Positions 19,930 to 47,277 of a DNA stretch of 64,000 nucleotides are shown in pieces (position 1 is the stretch's first letter; every line of letters begins with the position of its first letter). A program made the position numbers and the translations under genes. Under the pieces are notes generated by a model. That model did not search any database and had not been told where the DNA came from. It saw only the letters and a program-made list of their open reading frames with translations. The stretch lies in NCBI GenBank assembly GCA_963760485.1, contig CAVXDP010000015.1, positions 137,389-201,388 on the forward strand, given 5' to 3'. This stretch comes from Candidatus Bathyarchaeota archaeon (GTDB lineage Archaea; Thermoproteota; Bathyarchaeia; 40CM-2-53-6; CAVXDP01).

Positions 19930-22197
19930 TTGCAGTCCACAAGTAGAATAAGCGTAGAAGTGTTTGACGCAGCCTCCGCTCCGGTGCGTATGCAGATTCT
20001 CAAGCTTCTATCTTCGAAAGGGGCGTTTGCCTACACAGAGATAATGTCGTCGATAAAGCTGGATCCGATTAGAGATGCTGGAAAATTCGTCTACCATCTT
20101 AAGAGTCTCGTGGAAGCAGGGCTTTTAGACATTGACAAGGAGACAAAGAAGTACTCAATAACTGAACTGGGAAAGATGGTTGTCGGTTTTGGTAGAGATG
20201 TGGAGGAGTATGTCGCTGTCAAAAAGGGGAGATTACTCGTTAGAACCTCACGTTTCTCCATTGAGGAGTTTGACCGAGACAAGATCAGGGTTTCTCTTGT
20301 TCGCGAGGCAGGCGTCCCACATGAACTTGCGCAGGACTTGGCGGTAGAGGTTGAGGAGCGTCTTCTAAAGTCTAAGACTAGGTACCTCACGGCGCCTCTT
20401 ATACGTGAACTGATAAACTCAATCTTGGTTGAGAAGAAACTCGAGGATTACCGCCATAAACTGACAAGGCTTGGTATGCCAGTCTACGACGTTACTCAAC
20501 TAATGAATGAATCAAGCGATCGATTGCTTGACGTCAACTCGGTCAAGGAATCTGCAGGTTCATCTGTTCTGGAAGAATACGTATTGCTGAATGGGATTCC
20601 GCGAGATGTTGCGGACGCTCATCTCTCAGGCCAACTGTATCTCGGATTTTTAGATGATTGGATCTTGAAACCCGAGGAAGTTCAACATGATCTTCGCTTC
20701 TTCTTCAAGAAAGGATCAGCTATCTTCAATCCTCCACACAGTTTTCAGTCAGGCCTTGCAATATTAGAAAGAGTATCCAACCTTTGCTCTGCGGAAGTCT
20801 CTGGTGATCAATCATTCGATATGTTCAACGTATTCTTCGCGCCGTTCGTGGAGGGCATGAGAAAGGACAAGGTGTCTGAAACTCTCCAGGTCTTCTTTAA
20901 TGGGCTGAATAGATGGCTCGGCTCCAACATATCGAGGTTTCCCATCTCGTTTGGAATAGAACTTGCGGTTCCAAGCTATTTGGAGAAAGTTGATGCCGTT
21001 GGAATCGATGGGAAAATAACTGGAACCTATGGGGACTTTCGAAACGAGACCAAAGCATTGGCTGAAGCGATTATTGATGCAATCCATGATATCGCATCTC
21101 ACCAACTACTGCTCAATCCACGTTTTGTCTTCAAAATAAGGAAAAAGATGTTGAATGACCCAAACTTCGAGCCCTTGATCTCGAGTATCTATAGCTTGGC
21201 TGGGAAATATGCACTGCCGAATCTTGTTATCCTCGAAGACAATACCCGATTATCTTGCACTTCCAGTGGCCTAAAGCTTGGTGACGATTGGAAGGGAGAT
21301 TGGCAAACAAGCTGCATTCGGACGGGGAACCTTGGCACAGTGTTCCTCAACCTACCCAGAATCGCCTATGAAGCTCACAGAGACGACGAGCATATGTTCA
21401 AGATACTCTCAGATACCATGAAGATAACTGTGGAAGCCTTCAAATCAAAACGTGTAGCTATCGGTGACAGGATGAAACAGGGACTCCTTCCAGTACTATC
21501 AAACACATTTGACAGTTCTCCATATTTCTTTCAAAACAATGGATCATATTCGATGAGTTACGTTGGATTGACCGAGGCAGTAAAGTACCACACAGGAGGC
21601 GAACTGTACAAAGACGACAGTGCAATGAAGTTTGCATCAACAATCCTGTCGAAGATAACTCAGGAGGCGAAAACAATTTCCGAGGAATTGGAAATGCGCC
21701 TGCAAATCGCGCAAAGACCTGGTGATGACGCCGCAACTAGACTCGCTGAACTCGACATGGAGAAGTATGGTCGAGCCACGACTGTGGTTGAGGGTACCCG
21801 CAGTCACCCTTGCTACACGGAGCTTACGGTTCTACCCGCGTCAGTTAAGATTCTGATTCGAGACAGAGCACGAGTAGAGAGCAGGTTCCAAGCAGCGACC
21901 CCGGGAGGACACTTGCTTCCTGTGAATCTAACGCCCAAAGAGCATGACTCACGAACTATTCATAAGCTTAGTTCAGAGGTCCTATCTGAGAATATCCTGT
22001 GTTTCACCTACGCAAACACCTTCTCTTATTGTAGGGGCTGCGGAGATTATGCCGTAGGAATCACTTCAAAATGCCCCAGATGCAACTCCACATTGATCAC
22101 CCACGTAGGACGATGCTCTGCAACTTACGAACCGTTCGCCATATGGCCCGAGGCGAAAAGAAGGACTGTTGAGAAAAGGGTTTGCTATCCCTCATAG
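19930..22197 (+). CDS. NrdD-like (class III anaerobic ribonucleotide reductase family) protein with N-terminal ArsR-like wHTH, ATP-cone and C-terminal Zn ribbon. No recognisable glycyl-radical RxCGY motif
   Basis: The N-terminus has a wHTH (ILKLLSSKGAFAYTEIMSSIKLD...YHLKSLVEAGLL). An ATP-cone follows (VRTSRFSIEEFDRDKIRVSLVREAG...). An NrdD-like HLSGQLYLGFLDD segment is present, and the C-terminus has CRGC...CPRC. Where RVCGY is expected the sequence reads GRCSATYEP, and the protein ends ...EKRVCYPS. Confidence 0.55.
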   Translation: MQSTSRISVEVFDAASAPVRMQILKLLSSKGAFAYTEIMSSIKLDPIRDAGKFVYHLKSLVEAGLLDIDKETKKYSITELGKMVVGFGRDVEEYVAVKKGRLLVRTSRFSIEEFDRDKIRVSLVREAGVPHELAQDLAVEVEERLLKSKTRYLTAPLIRELINSILVEKKLEDYRHKLTRLGMPVYDVTQLMNESSDRLLDVNSVKESAGSSVLEEYVLLNGIPRDVADAHLSGQLYLGFLDDWILKPEEVQHDLRFFFKKGSAIFNPPHSFQSGLAILERVSNLCSAEVSGDQSFDMFNVFFAPFVEGMRKDKVSETLQVFFNGLNRWLGSNISRFPISFGIELAVPSYLEKVDAVGIDGKITGTYGDFRNETKALAEAIIDAIHDIASHQLLLNPRFVFKIRKKMLNDPNFEPLISSIYSLAGKYALPNLVILEDNTRLSCTSSGLKLGDDWKGDWQTSCIRTGNLGTVFLNLPRIAYEAHRDDEHMFKILSDTMKITVEAFKSKRVAIGDRMKQGLLPVLSNTFDSSPYFFQNNGSYSMSYVGLTEAVKYHTGGELYKDDSAMKFASTILSKITQEAKTISEELEMRLQIAQRPGDDAATRLAELDMEKYGRATTVVEGTRSHPCYTELTVLPASVKILIRDRARVESRFQAATPGGHLLPVNLTPKEHDSRTIHKLSSEVLSENILCFTYANTFSYCRGCGDYAVGITSKCPRCNSTLITHVGRCSATYEPFAIWPEAKRRTVEKRVCYPS

Positions 22198-24103: not shown

Positions 24104-24412
24104 ATGAACAGAATATCGATACTGGTGGACAAGAAGATGGCTGCATATCTCGAGTTGCCGAAGAACATAGGCATCTCGGTGGCGTCGGGGAGAAATGACG
24201 CAGTACGCAGATTCAAAAGGCTGCGTTGTGATAATGACATTTCAATTATCATGGTTTCTAGAAGAGTCTTGGATTGGATAGAACAGCCCCTGTCGATGTG
24301 CACTGAGCAAGGCGGATGTCCGTTTGTTGTATCTCTTATCAACAAGGGTGGCCCAAGGACCCAGGCTAGACATGTTTCAAGGTTACTGGGAAAAATTGTT
24401 GAATCAACCTAG
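24104..24412 (+). CDS. V-type ATPase subunit F-like paralog
   Basis: ISILVDKKMAAYLEL...IGISVAS...DISIIMVSRRVLDWIEQ aligns with the bona fide AtpF at 63410 (VAIIADKYLATGFRLAGV...YDIIIMTEKLAMALKRE). It stands alone next to the P-type ATPase. Confidence 0.4.
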   Translation: MNRISILVDKKMAAYLELPKNIGISVASGRNDAVRRFKRLRCDNDISIIMVSRRVLDWIEQPLSMCTEQGGCPFVVSLINKGGPRTQARHVSRLLGKIVEST

Positions 24413-27194
24413 GGTCGCCGGCTAGTTCTCTTTTTGTCAACAGATATACTTGAAGCGGTGATTCGAGTCAGGTGCTTTCGAACCTCCTCGGCTACTAGTG
24501 GAAGAGGCGCGAGTAGGAGGAGAACCGCCCAGTTTTGGATTGTTAGTGGATACGTTCCAAAAATGGTCTGGAGAGGAGGAAGGTAGACGATTCCAGATAA
24601 TATTATGATTTGGGATGCAATCCCGAACCAGATCCACTTGTTACTGAAGGGCTTCACCTCTGAAATTGACGTTCTTCCAGTTCTACACGCAAACAGGTTC
24701 GCAGATTGCGCCACGACGATTCCAGCAAGGGTCATCGTGGTCCCCTGCCGATAAACTGGGTTATCTGAAGCTAGTCCCAACCCAAATCTCCATCCTCCAG
24801 CAATCCAAACAAGGAAACAACCAGTCAAGGACACTAGAGACACGAATATTCCAAGGAAAAGAGATCTTGCGATCGTTTTGGAATCGAAGAGTCTTTCTTT
24901 TGGACTTCGTGGAGGTCTATTCATGATGTGAGGTTCTGGGGGTTCGATGCTCAAGGCCAATGATGGAATGACCTCTATACCCAAATCGATTGCAAGAACT
25001 TGAGTGACAAGTAGTGGGAGTGGGATTCCGACTAGGACAAAAAGCAGGTAAGGTATCAGTTCGGCCCAGTTGTGCGCGAAGACATACGTTATGAACTTTC
25101 GTATGTTGTCATAGATTGCTCTGCCGCCTTCGATAGCCTTTGAGATCGATGCAAAACTATCGTCAAGCAAGATCATATCCGCAGATTCTCTTGCAACATC
25201 GGTGCCAGCCACACCCATCGCTACACCTATGTCCGCTTTCTTCAAAGAGGGCGCGTCGTTGGCTCCATCACCTGTGACCGCGACAATCTCTCCCATCGAC
25301 TTGAGTAGGGACACGATCCGCATCTTGTGTTCTGGCGTTGCTCTTGCAAAGATTATTTCTCCGGCATCAATCTGCCTGATCAAGTCGGGCTCAGTGAGTT
25401 TGTCCAGTTGGGCTCCAGTCAATACCGTACATTTTTCCGTCTCAACGATCCCTACTTGTCGGGCTATCGTGAGTGCGGTAGGTCCATAATCTCCCGTAAT
25501 CAAGATGACCCTTATGCCCGCCTTCTTCGCGTCCATGACGGCTTTTCTAACCTCGGGTCTGGGCGGGTCTAGGATTCCAAGAAGACCAATGAATACAAGA
25601 TCTGTTTCAACGGTATCGACATTCCATTCATGCAAGTCGGGTGGTAGTTTCCGATAGGCCACTGCCAGAACGCGGAGACCCTCCTCACCAAGTCTCCTTT
25701 TTTCAAGATTTATCTGATCAATATCTTCCTGAGCTAATGGGTGCACCTCAGACCCGTCAAGAACATGGGAACAGACATTGAGTGTCTCTTTTGGAGCTCC
25801 TTTGACGTAGGCGATGTTGCCGTCCTTTGTCTTGTGAATTGAAGACATCCTTTTTCTTATGGATTCGAATGGCAAGAGTTTGACTAATGGTGCATCAACT
25901 AGTTCGTTCTGCACGTTCAAATCCATCTTCAACGCCAATGTCAGAAGCGAGCCTTCAGTCGGGTCTCCAAGTACTCGCCACTGGCCACTTGTATCCGTAG
26001 GTGGAATCAGTTTCGAACTATTGCAGAGCGACGATGCCTTGAGGAGTATTTCTACACCTTTTCTCTCGCCGAGCTCTAGTTTCCGATCTCCAATGAGTAG
26101 TTCTCCTGATGGGCCGTAACCCTCGCCGGTCACGTCAATCGTTTCACCATCTATCCAGATCTTCTTGACTGTCATTTCTCCTTTGGTTATTGTTCCCGTC
26201 TTGTCGGTGCAGATCACTGTGGTGCTGCCGAGAGTCTCCACTGCTGAAAGCCTCTTGACTAGAACATTCTGCCGGGCGAGTCGAACAACTCCGAGGGCTA
26301 GCGCGGTTGACACAGTAACCTGCAAACCCTCTGGAACACATGCAACCATGACGCCTATCATGAAAAGGAATCCTGTTAGTGCATTCATGTGGAACCAGAG
26401 TGTATCCACCATGAAGAATAGTACCCCAACAGTGATCGCGATCACAAAGTCGATCTTGCGGCGTGCGATATCTGGTTCTGAAGTGGACTAACCGTATCTT
26501 CTATTGACTCGCTCATACCGGCAATTTTTCCAAATTGAGTTCTCATTCCGGTGTCATACACAACCGCTCTTCCAAAGCCCGACGCCACGGTGACTCCCAT
26601 GAACACAAGGTTCGTTACGTCGAGCCAACTTGCGGTTTCTGCCTGCATGGGATCAGCGTCTCTGGGTTGCGCCTCCGACTCTCCTGTTAGGGCGACGTTA
26701 TTCGTAGAGAGATCAAAAGCTTCCACAACACGTGCGTCTGCTGGAACGCGATCACCTTCATTTAGAATCAGTAAGTCTCCAGGGGCGATATCCTCAGCCT
26801 GGATTACCTTGGTTTCACCGTCCCTTACAACAGTCGCACGAAAAGGCAGGAATCTTTTAAGGGCCTTTACCGCCCTTTCAGCACGATATTCTTGAACGAA
26901 ACTCAATATTGCATTTAGAATAACCACCACAAGAACTGAAATGCCAAACTCAACCATGCCAGTTACGAAAGCCAAAATAGCGGCTATTATCAGGAGAGCG
27001 CTAAAGAGATCTTTGAACTGAGAAAGAAACTTGTTGAGAGCTGCTGCCCGCTTTGGTTCAGACAGCCGGTTCGGGCCGTACTCCTGCAGTCTCTTTTGAG
27101 CTTCGTCTTCTGTTAATCCTGTTGATCTTGTCTCTAACCTCTTGAGTACATCTGAAACCGGCCATGTATAGATTGGCAAAGAGTCCTTCACCAC
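24409..27194 (-). CDS. P-type cation-transporting ATPase (about 925 aa), split into two ORFs (26442..27194 N-terminal, 24409..26445 C-terminal), consistent with a single-base indel near 26445-26470
   Basis: The N-terminal ORF carries TGES (NVALTGESEAQP) and the TPLQ-like SPLQNQI segment. The C-terminal ORF carries PEGL, DKTGTIT, TGDGANDAPSL and GVAGTDVA. The ORFs overlap by 4 nt in different frames. Confidence 0.8.
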
Positions 27195-45680: not shown

Positions 45681-45838
45681 ATTGAGGTCGTTCCTTAGAT
45701 CATCAACGGTAGTATATCAATAGAACGAGGTGAGACGTGGTTTACTCAGACTTGGTTTCTTGCAGACTCTGAATTACGGTGGTTCAACTTGACGATTGCA
45801 ACGGGAAACGTTGATATCAGACTTCGAGTCAACAATGA

Positions 45839-46798
45839 GTGGCGAATGAAGATTTGAAGAAGTGTTATGTGATCTTCATAGCAGTCCTTCTTGCAGTCCT
45901 GTCGTCTAGCGTTGTAGTTCCGAGTCACGCGGAGACTGTTACCAAGAACTTTACGCTAAAAGACTTTGATGTTACCCTAACATTTCCGAAGACTGCTAAT
46001 CCAGGTGACTCTGTTCCAGTTTCAGTGAATGCCGTAGCGAAAAGCTCGATAAATGTCGTTGACCTCTCAATTCAGGTACTCGCTTATGTTGAAGGTGGGG
46101 ACCTTCAATCGATTGGCAGTGCGTCGTTGGTGACAGGTCAGTCTCAATACCAATACCAGTATGTGTACAAGGGGAACACACTTCATAAGGAACTTTCCGT
46201 GACCGTCCCTTCGAATATTCTAAGAGGCGCTTTGGTAGCAGTCATTTCTGAGACTACACGCTCCACAGGTTACGCCTACTATTCGTACTACCCCTACTAC
46301 AATCAATACTACTACGACGGAAACACTCAGAATTACCAGTATTACTGGTACTACCCTTACTACTACACATACTACTACCCCGAGACTTATTATAATGAAT
46401 ATGTGGAGTCGAAGACCCTTCCCTGCACCTATATCCTCGCCACCACGCCAGAATATGTTAAACTCAAGTCTGACTACGACAAACTCTCCTCGGACTATGA
46501 TAAGCTGTCTTCTCAATACCAACAGGCCACAGAGCAGAACAAAGATCTTAACGACAGACTTTCCATGACAACCCAGGAACTAAACACCGCAATGATCCTT
46601 GCGGTCATCTTTGTGGCAACAACAGTGATTCTGGCAGCCTATCTATTATACACGCGTAGGAGAACCACGGTAATTTCAGCTGCTGGTGCACCCATTTCAA
46701 GCACGCCAGCTGCGGGCGTGCCAACTGCAGCGCCACCAGAGAAAGTCACAGCGGCACATGAAAAGAAAGAGGTTCCGAAGAAAGCGCCAGAAACCTAG
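45839..46798 (+). CDS. Type I membrane/surface protein with an extreme Tyr-rich low-complexity tract and a coiled-coil
   Basis: It has a signal-like N-terminus (CYVIFIAVLLAVLSSSVVVPSHA) and the tract YAYYSYYPYYNQYYYDGNTQNYQYYWYYPYYYTYYYPETYYNEY. A heptad-like repeat SDYDKLSSDYDKLSSQYQQ follows, then a TM helix and a basic/Pro-Ala-rich cytoplasmic tail. Confidence 0.5.
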   Translation: MANEDLKKCYVIFIAVLLAVLSSSVVVPSHAETVTKNFTLKDFDVTLTFPKTANPGDSVPVSVNAVAKSSINVVDLSIQVLAYVEGGDLQSIGSASLVTGQSQYQYQYVYKGNTLHKELSVTVPSNILRGALVAVISETTRSTGYAYYSYYPYYNQYYYDGNTQNYQYYWYYPYYYTYYYPETYYNEYVESKTLPCTYILATTPEYVKLKSDYDKLSSDYDKLSSQYQQATEQNKDLNDRLSMTTQELNTAMILAVIFVATTVILAAYLLYTRRRTTVISAAGAPISSTPAAGVPTAAPPEKVTAAHEKKEVPKKAPET

Positions 46799-47163
46799 AG
46801 TAGACAACATAGTTTTTGGCTCCTGGGGATCATTATCGGAGATACGAAACGAAAAACTCATATGGAATAGCCTATCTGCTCCATGCGATGGCCGCCGTAA
46901 CGTAGAGTGAACGAGCAAAATTCGTTCCCGCGGACCTTGGTTAGCGTACAGGCCTGAAAGGAAACGGCAAACGCCGACCTTGGCCAATGGAGCCTGGAAA
47001 GCGACCATGTAAGTGGTGCTTGGGCAAAGGCCGGGTTCAAATCACCAGTTCACTGGTGGGAAAATCCCGGCGGCGGCCCTCAAGATATTTCTTTTGAACA
47101 CGGTATTCATTCCACTCGATATCTCAAGAAAGCTTTAATGAGTCATTTTCCATTCCAGATGCT

Positions 47164-47277
47164 GGGCCGGTAGTTCAGTCTGGCATACCTGTCGAAGGGC
47201 CAAGGAACGTCCGGTTTGCAAGGTTCAGCTTAACCCAACAAGCCGGAAGGTCGCGGGTTCAAATCCCGCCCGGTCCA
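47164..47277 (+). tRNA. tRNA-Ala (anticodon TGC) with apparently two introns (in the D-loop and next to the anticodon loop)
   Basis: The acceptor GGGCCGG pairs with CCGGTCC, including a G3:U70 pair (Ala identity element). The T-arm is GCGGG-TTCAAAT-CCCGC. The anticodon stem TCCGG...CCGGA has loop TTTGCA(A). The D-stem GTTC...GAAC is separated by an insert of about 20 nt. Total length is 114 nt. Confidence 0.5.

What the first reader, a model, noticed from the sequence alone, without database searches (positions are those of the whole stretch)
45839..46798. Surface protein with an extreme polytyrosine low-complexity domain
The 319-aa type I membrane protein has a signal peptide, a beta-rich N-domain, then about 45 residues that are more than 50% Tyr (YAYYSYYPYYNQYYYDGNTQNYQYYWYYPYYYTYYYPETYYNEY). 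A short heptad repeat (SDYDKLSSDYDKLSSQYQQ) follows, then a TM helix and a Pro/Ala/Lys tail. Tyr-rich tracts of this density are rare. They could mediate cross-linking (dityrosine), mineral or surface adhesion, or phase-separation-like assembly in the envelope.
Basis: seen in the sequence. Interest (0 to 1): 0.5.

Follow-up and report, generated by a model that had tools for sequence, protein, structure and literature searches.

The report
Tyrosine-tipped stalked surface protein of Bathyarchaeia
This is a real, conserved but unstudied membrane-anchored surface protein of uncultured Bathyarchaeia archaea, which holds a loop made more than half of tyrosine on a rigid stalk, probably as a sticky contact surface, though its function is untested.

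Summary
ORF 45839..46798 (+) encodes a 319-aa type I membrane protein with 24 Tyr in residues 145-188.

It is not a mis-assembly. An independent assembly gives the same gene length with 13 substitutions and no indel. All 90 homologues found first keep a Tyr-rich tract.

AlphaFold2 places the tract as a low-confidence loop at the tip of a long beta-hairpin in an arrestin-like beta-sandwich. An invariant ATTPEY joint connects the sandwich to seven heptads of coiled coil with a Tyr/Leu core. A TM helix and a cytoplasmic tail follow.

Stalk length across 90 of 91 family members is quantised in heptads (41 to 76 residues). Some relatives share the whole scaffold but lack the tract, so the tract is a lineage-specific loop expansion. 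It is selected for Tyr specifically: Tyr 34% against Phe 0.5%.

Twelve of 13 genome hits are Bathyarchaeia. No Pfam or NCBIfam model, solved relative, conserved operon or paper was found.

Best reading (inferred): a stalked envelope protein whose outermost Tyr/Ser/Pro loop is a multivalent non-covalent binding patch. Dityrosine cross-linking is disfavoured because the genome looks anaerobic.

Side finding: a tRNA-Phe gene with four putative introns lies just downstream.

The parts
45783..45817 (+). Conserved upstream block TTCAACTTGACGATTGCAACGGGAAACGTTGATAT. It is promoter-like: an A/T-rich GTTGATAT element sits about 25-45 nt before the start codons and is overlapped by the palindrome CAACG-N5-CGTTG.
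   Evidence: Nearly identical in orthologue L015, whose protein is only about 63% identical, while the rest of the intergenic region is not alignable. Its role as an archaeal promoter or operator is inferred, not tested.
45839..46798 (+). Coding sequence of the Tyr-tract protein: 319 aa from GTG 45839. The likely true start is TTG 45854, giving 314 aa beginning MKK.
   Evidence: ORF list and translation. Ninety homologues. Homologue N-termini and the conserved TTG.
45839..45931 (+). Sec-type signal peptide, residues 1-31. Basic n-region (KK), hydrophobic core, then S-H-A|E cleavage-like site.
   Evidence: Seen directly in the sequence. Modelled as an N-terminal helix followed by a low-confidence linker. 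The same pattern, with A-x-A/Q before the mature N-terminus, recurs across the family.
45932..46276 (+). Beta-sandwich head, residues 32-146. The fold is arrestin-N-like or Ig-like. It includes the family motifs FP/YP..xxPG[DEQ] and P..xxR..L.A...E.
46271..46402 (+). Tyr-rich tract, residues 145-188, with 24 Tyr in 44 residues. The modelled loop proper is residues 147-181 (nt 46277..46381). The conserved core is YWYYPYYYTYYYP.
   Evidence: Low pLDDT (about 46) between strands 130-146 and 182-199. Core motif conserved in the close clade. YPYY occurs in 75 of 91 members.
46382..46435 (+). Returning strand of the long terminal beta-hairpin, residues 182-199 (..YYNEYVESKTLPCTYIL).
   Evidence: strand E182-199, pLDDT 83-94. 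The ESKxLPCTY[IV]L motif is conserved.
46439..46456 (+). ATTPEY joint, residues 201-206, between the sandwich and the stalk. It has the form of a helix N-cap.
   Evidence: T203, P204 and E205 are invariant and A201 and Y206 nearly invariant in 45 diverse members. The helix starts at residue 204 in both models.
46448..46588 (+). Coiled-coil stalk, residues 204-250, of seven heptads. Position a is Y206, Y213, Y220, Y227, N234, L241, L248. Position d is L209, L216, L223, A230, L237, T244.
   Evidence: Register read from the sequence. Modelled as a single long helix, residues 204-273. Stalk length in 90 of 91 family members takes only the values 41, 48, 55, 62, 69 or 76 residues.
46589..46651 (+). 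Transmembrane helix, residues 251-271 (AMILAVIFVATTVILAAYLLY), followed by TRRR (positive-inside).
   Evidence: Seen in the sequence. Continuous with the stalk helix in the models.
46652..46795 (+). Cytoplasmic tail, residues 272-319. Basic, then Pro/Ala/Thr/Lys-rich, and predicted disordered.
   Evidence: pLDDT below 50. Conserved only in the nearest clade (PEK..EKK..PKK) and variable or absent elsewhere.

Best explanation
This is a Sec-secreted, C-terminally membrane-anchored envelope protein of an anaerobic Bathyarchaeia archaeon.

Shown by sequence, models and family comparison:
- One arrestin-like beta-sandwich is joined by an invariant ATTPEY cap to a parallel coiled-coil stalk. The stalk has seven heptads (about 7 nm) and a Tyr/Leu core.
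- The stalk runs straight into a TM helix, followed by a short disordered cytoplasmic tail.
- The Tyr tract is a lineage-specific expansion of the loop at the tip of the sandwich's last, unusually long beta-hairpin.

Inferred from strand directions: the returning strand enters the stalk directly, so the loop should sit at the membrane-distal end. It would then be the outermost part of the molecule, and oligomerisation through the stalk would cluster two or more loops.

Inferred from composition: the loop acts as a multivalent, non-covalent sticker patch. It would use Tyr hydroxyl hydrogen bonds together with pi and CH-pi stacking, spaced by Ser, Pro, Gly and Asn. The closest analogy is a Tyr/Ser-rich antibody CDR or a FUS-type low-complexity region grafted onto a beta-sandwich. 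Possible partners are neighbouring copies, other envelope or S-layer components, or external organic and mineral surfaces. My data cannot say which.
For: Reality and conservation:
- Ninety homologues at 24-99% identity all keep the tract.
- An independent assembly has the same gene length.
- There are 65 cluster representatives at E<=1e-30 and 165 at E<=1e-10.

Architecture:
- Two AlphaFold2 models agree.
- The heptad register is perfect.
- Stalk lengths are quantised in sevens in 90 of 91 members.
- ATTPEY is invariant.

Extracellular location:
- A signal peptide is present and RRR follows the TM helix.
- Cys in the tract occurs as 0 or 2 in 90 of 91 members, which fits disulfides.

Selection on the tract:
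- Pooled composition is Tyr 34% against Phe 0.5%, although the two are one transition apart. Lys plus Arg is 2%.
- Tract length is bounded at 41-72 residues.
- The core YWYYPYYY[ST]YYYP is conserved at 50-70% overall identity.
- Pro is preceded by Tyr 304 times.
- TAC codons are enriched in tracts of 15 orthologues: 77% against 62% background, Fisher p=4e-6.

Insertion nature: full-length relatives have the same scaffold but only a short Tyr-poor hairpin loop (P0112, P0121, P0122, P0125, P0133, P0134). A wider Tyr-less superfamily also exists.
Against: - No direct evidence of expression, localisation, oligomeric state or any binding partner exists.
- The membrane-distal position of the loop is deduced from strand directions, not from coordinates.
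- The loop has low model confidence, so it may be structured in a way AlphaFold2 cannot see.
- Some family members do without the tract, so it is not essential to the scaffold's basic role.
- Genomic context gives no functional hint. Synteny with a CDF transporter and the pur operon holds only in the nearest clade.
- No S-layer gene, glycosyltransferase or modifying enzyme is consistently linked.
Confidence: 0.45

Rival explanations
1. S-layer anchor or pseudoperiplasm spacer, analogous to Sulfolobus SlaB. The stalk would set the distance between membrane and canopy, and the Tyr loop would be the docking surface for a separate S-layer protein.
For: The architecture is the same in order: signal peptide, beta-sandwich, coiled coil, C-terminal TM helix. 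This is as described for SlaB (PMC6911244). Heptad-quantised stalk lengths fit a spacer role. S-layer proteins have been predicted in Bathyarchaeia (bioRxiv 10.1101/2024.05.28.596244).
Against: There is one sandwich instead of two or three. The window protein does not match the NCBIfam SlaB model. A Tyr-less relative scores 16.7 bits against a cut-off of 700, and only over the coiled coil plus TM. No large secreted protein gene lies next to it in the window or in related loci. A 45-residue cytoplasmic tail is not part of the SlaB description I read.
Confidence: 0.2
2. Functionless low-complexity expansion. Codon slippage (TAC TAC) would have inflated an exposed, tolerant loop, so the Tyr richness is a neutral by-product and only the scaffold is functional.
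For: The loop is dispensable in some relatives. The N-terminal half of the tract is rich in indels between clades. Model confidence is low. There are weak 9- and 12-nt tandem arrays.
Against: The tract persists in every one of the 90 first-pass homologues across deep divergence. Its length is bounded and Phe is almost excluded. Individual Tyr and Trp positions are invariant in the close clade (W170, Y147, Y150, Y175). Length is stable between near-identical strains. Paired Cys appear inside the tract in 18 members.
Confidence: 0.15
3. Transmembrane sensor or regulator. The ectodomain would sense an external cue, and the cytoplasmic tail would control a transcription factor.
For: In eight distant homologue loci, a conserved Tfx-like HTH protein gene of about 155 aa overlaps the start of the gene on the same strand. 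One Tyr-less relative (P0213) carries a MazE/AbrB-type domain after its TM helix, scoring 46.9 bits against a cut-off of 24.7.
Against: The window protein has no such partner gene; tblastn of the HTH protein against the window finds nothing. Its tail is low-complexity and poorly conserved. No recognisable signalling domain is present.
Confidence: 0.1
4. Covalently cross-linked wall component. Tyr residues would be oxidised to dityrosine or quinone cross-links, as in spore coats, extensins or eggshells, to harden the envelope.
For: The Tyr density is extreme and exposed. Known Tyr-rich extracellular proteins such as Bacillus spore-coat proteins are discussed in terms of dityrosine cross-links (PMC7944565, title and abstract only).
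Against: The chemistry needs O2 or H2O2 and a peroxidase, laccase or tyrosinase. The window encodes a class III (anaerobic, glycyl-radical) ribonucleotide reductase. Related contigs carry ferredoxin-dependent AOR and glycyl-radical enzymes. No oxidase is linked to the gene in any locus.
Confidence: 0.06
5. Membrane-engaging tip. The aromatic loop on a long beta-hairpin would insert into the interfacial region of another membrane (cell-cell contact, vesicles or fusion). This resembles fusion loops of class II fusogens or the stem hairpins of beta-pore-forming toxins.
Confidence: 0.04

Closest known systems
SlaB, the membrane anchor of the Sulfolobales S-layer
   Same: Archaeal (Thermoproteota) protein with an N-terminal Sec signal, beta-sandwich head, coiled-coil stalk and single C-terminal TM helix (PMC6911244).
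   Different: SlaB has two or three sandwiches, a longer coiled coil and a Ser/Thr-rich glycosylated linker, and its gene sits next to slaA. Here there is one sandwich, a Tyr-rich tip loop, a 45-residue cytoplasmic tail, no slaA-like neighbour and no sequence match to the SlaB model.
p24/TMED (EMP24/GOLD) cargo receptors of eukaryotes
   Same: Same linear plan: signal peptide, beta-sandwich, short coiled coil, TM helix, short cytoplasmic tail. One homologue gives a sub-threshold Pfam hit.
Tyr/Ser-rich antigen-binding loops (antibody CDRs, FN3 monobodies)
   Same: A variable loop dominated by Tyr, Ser and Gly is displayed at the end of a beta-sandwich. Tyr is the main contact residue (general knowledge, not tested here).
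   Different: The loop here is 35-70 residues and up to 55% Tyr, far longer and more repetitive. It is germ-line encoded and conserved within clades, and it is anchored on a coiled-coil stalk.
FUS-type or prion-like low-complexity domains (sticker-and-spacer)
   Same: Tyr stickers separated by Ser, Gly, Asn, Gln and Pro spacers. Very few charged or aliphatic residues. Predicted non-globular.
   Different: This tract is extracellular, short, closed at both ends by a beta-hairpin, much denser in Tyr, and sometimes contains a disulfide pair. No evidence of phase separation or amyloid formation exists.
Tyr-rich cross-linked structural proteins (Bacillus CotC/CotU-type coat proteins, extensins, schistosome eggshell proteins)
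   Same: Extracellular and very Tyr-rich.
   Different: Those act through oxidative covalent cross-links. Here the organism appears anaerobic and no oxidase is linked. Lys-rich or Gly-rich companion composition is absent.
Arrestin-fold proteins (arrestin N-lobe, Vps26, TXNIP, Bacillus Spo0M)
   Different: Identity is 7-13% with low TM-scores. No Pfam arrestin-type domain is detected. Those proteins are cytoplasmic two-lobed adaptors, not secreted single sandwiches on a stalk.

Membership tests
SlaB (S-layer anchor, Sulfolobales) | Sequence match to the curated SlaB model (NCBIfam NF040788) | tested here: not met
   The window protein gives no hit at E<=0.01. The Tyr-less relative P0226 scores 16.7 bits against a cut-off of 700, over the coiled coil plus TM only.
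SlaB (S-layer anchor, Sulfolobales) | Signal peptide, two or three beta-sandwich domains, coiled coil and C-terminal TM helix | tested here: inconclusive
   The order of elements is the same, but only one sandwich is present. SlaB description from PMC6911244.
SlaB (S-layer anchor, Sulfolobales) | Gene adjacent to the S-layer canopy gene (slaA-like) | tested here: not met
   The neighbours are a CDF transporter, tRNA genes, geranylgeranyl reductase and the pur operon. No large secreted protein gene is nearby in the window or in L014-L018.
SlaB (S-layer anchor, Sulfolobales) | Trimeric stalk that binds the canopy lattice | not testable with these tools
   Needs multimer modelling, cryo-ET or biochemistry.
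p24/EMP24/GOLD (PF01105) | Pfam score above the gathering threshold, covering the GOLD domain | tested here: not met
   The window protein has no hit. P0005 scores 20.0 bits against 25.9, on profile positions 107-175 only (coiled coil plus TM).
p24/EMP24/GOLD (PF01105) | GOLD-type beta-sandwich as the best structural match | tested here: not met
Arrestin-fold superfamily | Sequence-level domain match (Pfam arrestin_N, Vps26 or Spo0M families) | tested here: not met
   No such family at E<=1 in 20 members.
Arrestin-fold superfamily | Fold similarity of the sandwich | tested here: inconclusive
Sticker-and-spacer or prion-like low-complexity region | Aromatic stickers with polar uncharged spacers and few charges | tested here: met
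   Pooled tracts: Tyr 34%, Ser 15%, Pro 8%, Thr 7%, Asn 6%, Gly 5%. Lys plus Arg 2%, Asp plus Glu 5%.
Sticker-and-spacer or prion-like low-complexity region | Self-association, phase separation or amyloid formation | not testable with these tools
   Needs recombinant protein. AlphaFold2 only reports low confidence.
Dityrosine-cross-linked wall or coat proteins | Oxidative enzyme and oxidant available (peroxidase, laccase or tyrosinase; O2 or H2O2) | tested here: inconclusive
   No such gene lies near the locus in any genome fragment examined. The window carries an anaerobic class III NrdD. Whole genomes were not available.
Bathyarchaeial 'ATTPEY' stalked-sandwich family (defined here; no database model) | Signal peptide, sandwich with PG and R..L.A...E motifs, [LV][ST]Y[IV]xATTPEY joint, heptad stalk, TM helix | tested here: met
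   All features are present in the window protein and in the 45- and 91-member alignments.

The most novel reading that the evidence does not exclude
The Tyr loops of densely packed, stalk-mounted copies interlock non-covalently into a continuous aromatic network, a gel-like or zipper-like 'tyrosine coat'. This coat would itself be the outer wall layer, or the main adhesive interface, of these soil and sediment Bathyarchaeia. That would be a type of archaeal envelope material not described before, built from a low-complexity loop rather than a crystalline S-layer lattice.
Probability: 0.12. Interest if true: 0.75.

Novelty: new variant of a known kind. Interest (0 to 1): 0.45.

Why it matters
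Bathyarchaeia are among the most abundant uncultured archaea in sediments, peat and soil, and almost nothing is known about their cell surface. This family provides a concrete, conserved and easily recognised surface protein. It has a built-in ruler (a heptad-quantised stalk) and an extreme, Tyr-specific tip.

Three things would follow if the tip mediates self-association or attachment to organic matter:
- It would bear on how these cells build an envelope and stick to detrital particles.
- It would be a natural example of a sticker-type low-complexity sequence working outside the cell.
- It could serve as an epitope or marker for enrichment and imaging.

If the tract is a tolerated expansion, the finding is only a compositional curiosity.

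Tried and rejected
- **Mis-assembly or repeat artefact:** rejected.
- **Known domain families:** Pfam and NCBIfam return only sub-threshold or spurious coiled-coil hits such as HALZ, Rab11-FIP3, ZapB and SMC, and no family for the head. A PDB sequence search finds only non-significant coiled coils.
- **p24/GOLD homology:** the single EMP24 hit covers only the coiled coil plus TM and is below threshold.
- **Operon-based inference:** no neighbour is conserved across clades. The CDF transporter and pur genes are syntenic only in the nearest clade. An M19 dipeptidase lies upstream in a second clade. A Tfx-like HTH gene lies upstream in a third.
- **Paralogues or other Tyr-rich genes:** none in the window. 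In 195 kb of related loci there is one unrelated Gly/Tyr-rich ORF, in L012.
- **Viral origin:** no relatives in IMG/VR contigs.
- **Neighbouring tRNA as tRNA-Tyr:** rejected. The two tRNA genes are Phe(GAA) and Ala(UGC).
- **Literature:** no paper links Bathyarchaeia with Tyr-rich proteins, and searches for Tyr-rich archaeal surface proteins found nothing relevant.
- **AFDB Foldseek library:** unavailable.
- **Minus-strand ORF 46697..47008:** it looked conserved, but this is an artefact of the conserved tRNA-Phe gene on the plus strand.
Full report
**1. The observation**

ORF 45839..46798 (+) is present and translates exactly as quoted. Residues 145-188 contain 24 Tyr in 44 positions. Seven neighbouring genes average 3.2% Tyr, so the probability for a given 45-residue window is about 3e-24. 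No other stretch in any frame of the 64-kb window reaches even 9 Tyr in 30 residues.

The signal peptide, TM helix followed by RRR, heptads and Pro/Ala/Lys tail are all visible in the sequence.

The start is probably TTG 45854 rather than GTG 45839. Homologues start at the equivalent MKK/LKK, and the TTG is conserved in an orthologue's DNA, preceded by a GGTGG-like element.

**2. Not an artefact**

An independently assembled ENA contig (L014) matches 2742 nt of the window at 99.1%. Within the gene there are 13 substitutions and no indel. One of the four amino-acid changes is N155Y, inside the tract.

Tandem Repeats Finder sees only two weak arrays of about 30 nt.

A search of 5.8 billion clustered proteins returned 90 homologues at 24-99% identity, all annotated as hypothetical. 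Every one has a Tyr-rich tract at the same place.

Read coverage and expression could not be examined.

**3. Organism**

Three lines of evidence point to an archaeon:
- The intron-containing tRNA at 47164..47277.
- RtcB, an Fae-Hps fusion and an ADP-forming acetyl-CoA synthetase-like gene.
- The record titles of genome hits, 12 of 13 of which are Bathyarchaeia or Bathyarchaeota MAGs.

The thirteenth hit is a contig binned as an Acidiferrales bacterium. I could not tell whether it is mis-binned.

A class III anaerobic ribonucleotide reductase in the window indicates an anaerobic lifestyle.

**4. Anatomy**

Two AlphaFold2 runs, with 20 and 91 aligned sequences, agree:
- A signal helix.
- A beta-sandwich spanning residues 33-146 plus a returning strand 182-199. 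With the deeper alignment its pLDDT is 90-97.
- A low-confidence loop, residues 147-181.
- A single helix, residues 204-273.
- A disordered tail.

The tract is therefore the tip loop of the last, unusually long (17-18 residue) beta-hairpin of the sandwich. It is not a separate linker.

The returning strand ends three residues before the helix. By inference, the loop therefore lies at the end of the head farthest from the stalk and membrane.

The joint is A201-T-T-P-E-Y206. T203, P204 and E205 are invariant in 45 diverse members.

From Y206 the sequence keeps a perfect heptad register for seven heptads. Position a is Y, Y, Y, Y, N, L, L and position d is L, L, L, A, L, T. The register runs directly into the TM segment.

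Across the 91 aligned members the segment from TPE to the TM start takes only the lengths 41, 48, 55, 62, 69 and 76 residues, apart from one member with no residues in that segment. This is strong evidence for a genuine coiled-coil stalk whose length evolves in whole heptads.

**5. The fold of the head**

Pfam, NCBIfam and a PDB sequence search give nothing beyond coiled-coil noise.

**6. The tract in the family**

In 91 members the segment between E138 and the LP.TY motif is 41-72 residues (median 61). Tyr makes up 15-48% of it.

| Pooled composition | Share |
|---|---|
| Tyr | 34% |
| Ser | 15% |
| Pro | 8% |
| Thr | 7% |
| Asn | 6% |
| Gly | 5% |
| Trp | 2.5% |
| Phe | 0.5% |
| Lys plus Arg | 2% |

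Tyr and Phe codons differ by one transition, so a 68:1 ratio argues for selection on the phenolic hydroxyl rather than on bulk hydrophobicity.

Further signs of constraint:
- Cys occurs as 0 or 2 per tract in 90 of 91 members, with 18 members having exactly two. This fits an extracellular disulfide.
- YPYY is present in 75 of 91 members, and Pro is preceded by Tyr 304 times.
- In the window's clade the C-terminal half (YWYYPYYY[ST]YYYP) is conserved residue by residue, while the N-terminal half gains and loses short Tyr-rich units.
- Tyr codons in tracts of 15 orthologues are 77% TAC, against 62% in flanking long ORFs (odds ratio 2.0, p=4e-6). This fits translational tuning or a slippage history.

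**7. The tract is an optional insertion**

An exhaustive HMM search of 1.84 billion representatives found 526 proteins at E<=1e-3, 165 at E<=1e-10 and 65 at E<=1e-30.

Among the strong hits are full-length members with the same signal peptide, sandwich motifs, APLTYIxATTPEY joint, Gln-rich stalk and TM helix, but only a short Tyr-poor hairpin loop. These are P0112, P0121, P0122, P0125, P0133 and P0134.

Weaker hits form a wider Tyr-less group. Examples are P0166, P0168, P0226 and P0184, the last identical in cluster to a 'Thermoproteota archaeon' protein. They share the plan of signal peptide, sandwich, xDYDSLx heptads and TM helix.

An HMM built from the head alone scores these proteins 20-40 bits at colinear positions. 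This supports, but does not prove, common ancestry of the head.

The window protein therefore sits at the Tyr-rich extreme of a scaffold family in which this loop is the variable element.

**8. Context**

Only the nearest clade shares the divergent CDF transporter and the pur operon. Another orthologue lies after M23 and C39-like peptidase genes. A second clade follows an M19 dipeptidase gene. In eight distant loci a conserved Tfx-like HTH protein gene of about 155 aa overlaps the start codon.

No glycosyltransferase, oxidase, S-layer gene or secretion component is consistently linked, so the gene looks monocistronic. A 35-nt block upstream (45783..45817) is conserved with an orthologue whose protein is only about 63% identical, which suggests a conserved promoter or operator.

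No relatives occur in viral contigs.

**9. Mechanism**

Shown: a secreted, C-terminally anchored, stalked single-sandwich protein with a Tyr-specific, bounded, conserved-within-clade tip loop.

Inferred:
- The stalk oligomerises in parallel and holds the head about 7 nm off the membrane.
- The loops cluster at the outer end.
- Their composition makes them a multivalent, non-covalent binding surface.

The Tyr/Ser/Gly/Pro/Asn composition mirrors that of antibody CDRs and FUS-type sticker-spacer sequences. I recall both analogies from general knowledge and did not test them.

I put 0.45 on this reading. Within it I cannot choose between self-association, docking of another envelope layer and attachment to external organic or mineral matter.

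Rivals:

| Rival | Confidence | Main points |
|---|---|---|
| SlaB-like S-layer anchor | 0.2 | Architecture matches; membership tests fail |
| Neutral low-complexity expansion | 0.15 | Countered by the selection signatures above |
| Sensor or regulator | 0.1 | HTH neighbour and the MazE-domain relative P0213; nothing comparable in the window protein |
| Dityrosine cross-linking | 0.06 | Organism looks anaerobic; no oxidase linked |
| Membrane-inserting tip | 0.04 | Weak structural analogies only |

**10. Novelty**

No database family, solved structure or paper describes this family.

In kind, it is a membrane-anchored stalked surface protein, as known from Sulfolobales SlaB. The elaboration is a poly-Tyr tip loop on a heptad-quantised stalk, which is new. 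I therefore rate it a new variant of a known kind, with interest 0.45.

**11. Side finding**

The 365-nt gap between this gene and the tRNA at 47164 contains a block of about 190 nt. That block is about 90% identical to L001, whose flanking protein is only 62% identical. It recurs in 11 metagenome contigs with compensatory changes. It has no Rfam match even at E<=1.

Read by hand, it is a tRNA-Phe(GAA) gene split by four putative introns: in the D-loop, at position 37/38, in the variable region, and at the T-loop/T-stem junction. The in-silico spliced 76-nt sequence is called tRNA-Phe by ARAGORN. A shorter natural variant lacking the third intron also splices to tRNA-Phe.

A review I consulted mentions up to three introns per crenarchaeal tRNA gene (PMC4090602).

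The adjacent tRNA is Ala(UGC), with two insertions relative to the Rfam tRNA model that I read as introns, one in the D-loop and one after the anticodon.

Noticed in passing
window 46891..47078 (+): A conserved block of about 190 nt that Rfam (even at E<=1) and ARAGORN miss. By hand it reads as a tRNA-Phe(GAA) gene with four putative introns: 46908-46936 in the D-loop, 46960-46990 at position 37/38, 46999-47027 in the variable region, and 47043-47065 at the T-loop/T-stem junction. The spliced sequence is called tRNA-Phe by ARAGORN. Eleven metagenome loci share the block with compensatory changes, and a shorter variant (L019, L023) lacks the third intron. A review I read cites at most three introns per crenarchaeal tRNA gene. 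Exact boundaries (within 1-2 nt) and bulge-helix-bulge motifs were not checked.
   Followed up: partly
window 47164..47277 (+): tRNA-Ala(UGC), 114 nt, with two insertions relative to the Rfam tRNA model that I read as introns: about 21 nt in the D-loop and about 21 nt after the anticodon. It is found by Rfam but not by ARAGORN. It lies downstream of the tRNA-Phe block on the same strand in the window, and in 8 of the other 12 loci that carry the block.
   Followed up: partly
window 46697..47008 (-): A 103-aa minus-strand ORF looked conserved with L001 (57% identity over 88 aa). This is explained by the conserved tRNA-Phe gene and the 3' end of the Tyr-protein gene on the plus strand, so it is not a gene.
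   Followed up: yes
window 45783..45817 (+): A 35-nt upstream block (TTCAACTTGACGATTGCAACGGGAAACGTTGATAT) is almost identical in an orthologous locus whose protein is only about 63% identical. It contains the palindrome CAACG-N5-CGTTG next to an A/T-rich element, which suggests a promoter plus an operator.
   Followed up: partly
L005 5252-5755, L006 5402-5722, L007 5264-5728, L008 5258-5722, L009 5312-5776, L010 5213-5716, L011 1558-2022, L013 1839-2303 (all +): In a distant clade of the family, a conserved protein gene of about 155 aa overlaps the start of the Tyr-protein gene on the same strand. The protein has a weak Tfx/HTH_3-like N-terminus and a C-x2-C-x5-6-C motif. It is absent from the window.
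   Followed up: partly
P0213 (448 aa, metagenomic relative): A Tyr-less relative with a long stalk carries a MazE/AbrB (SpoVT-type) domain after its TM helix, on the predicted cytoplasmic side. It scores 46.9 bits against a cut-off of 24.7.
   Followed up: no
P0137 (424 aa); P0106 (434 aa) and locus L013 2300-3661: P0137 has two tandem copies of the sandwich head. P0106 and L013 have a tract extended to well over 100 residues, with an added Pro/Thr/Gln-rich segment. The head and the loop are therefore both evolutionarily plastic.
   Followed up: no
window 19930..22197 (+): A class III anaerobic ribonucleotide reductase (NrdD) carries an N-terminal winged-helix-like region (DUF7347/HTH_20) and an ATP-cone.
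   Followed up: no
window 24409..26445 (-) and 26442..27194 (-): The 678-aa ORF matches only the hydrolase, Cation_ATPase and C-terminal parts of a P-type ATPase. The 250-aa ORF overlapping its start by 4 nt was not examined. This may be a split or frameshifted ATPase gene.
   Followed up: no
L012 (contig DATIYC010000016.1), including about 2306 (-): This is the one family member found in a MAG labelled bacterial (Candidatus Acidiferrales). It sits next to a hydroxyproline dehydratase glycyl-radical enzyme and its activase. The same locus has an unrelated Gly/Tyr-rich ORF (YPYGGHGYGSPYWGYGYGGYPGFG). Whether the contig is mis-binned is unresolved.
   Followed up: partly
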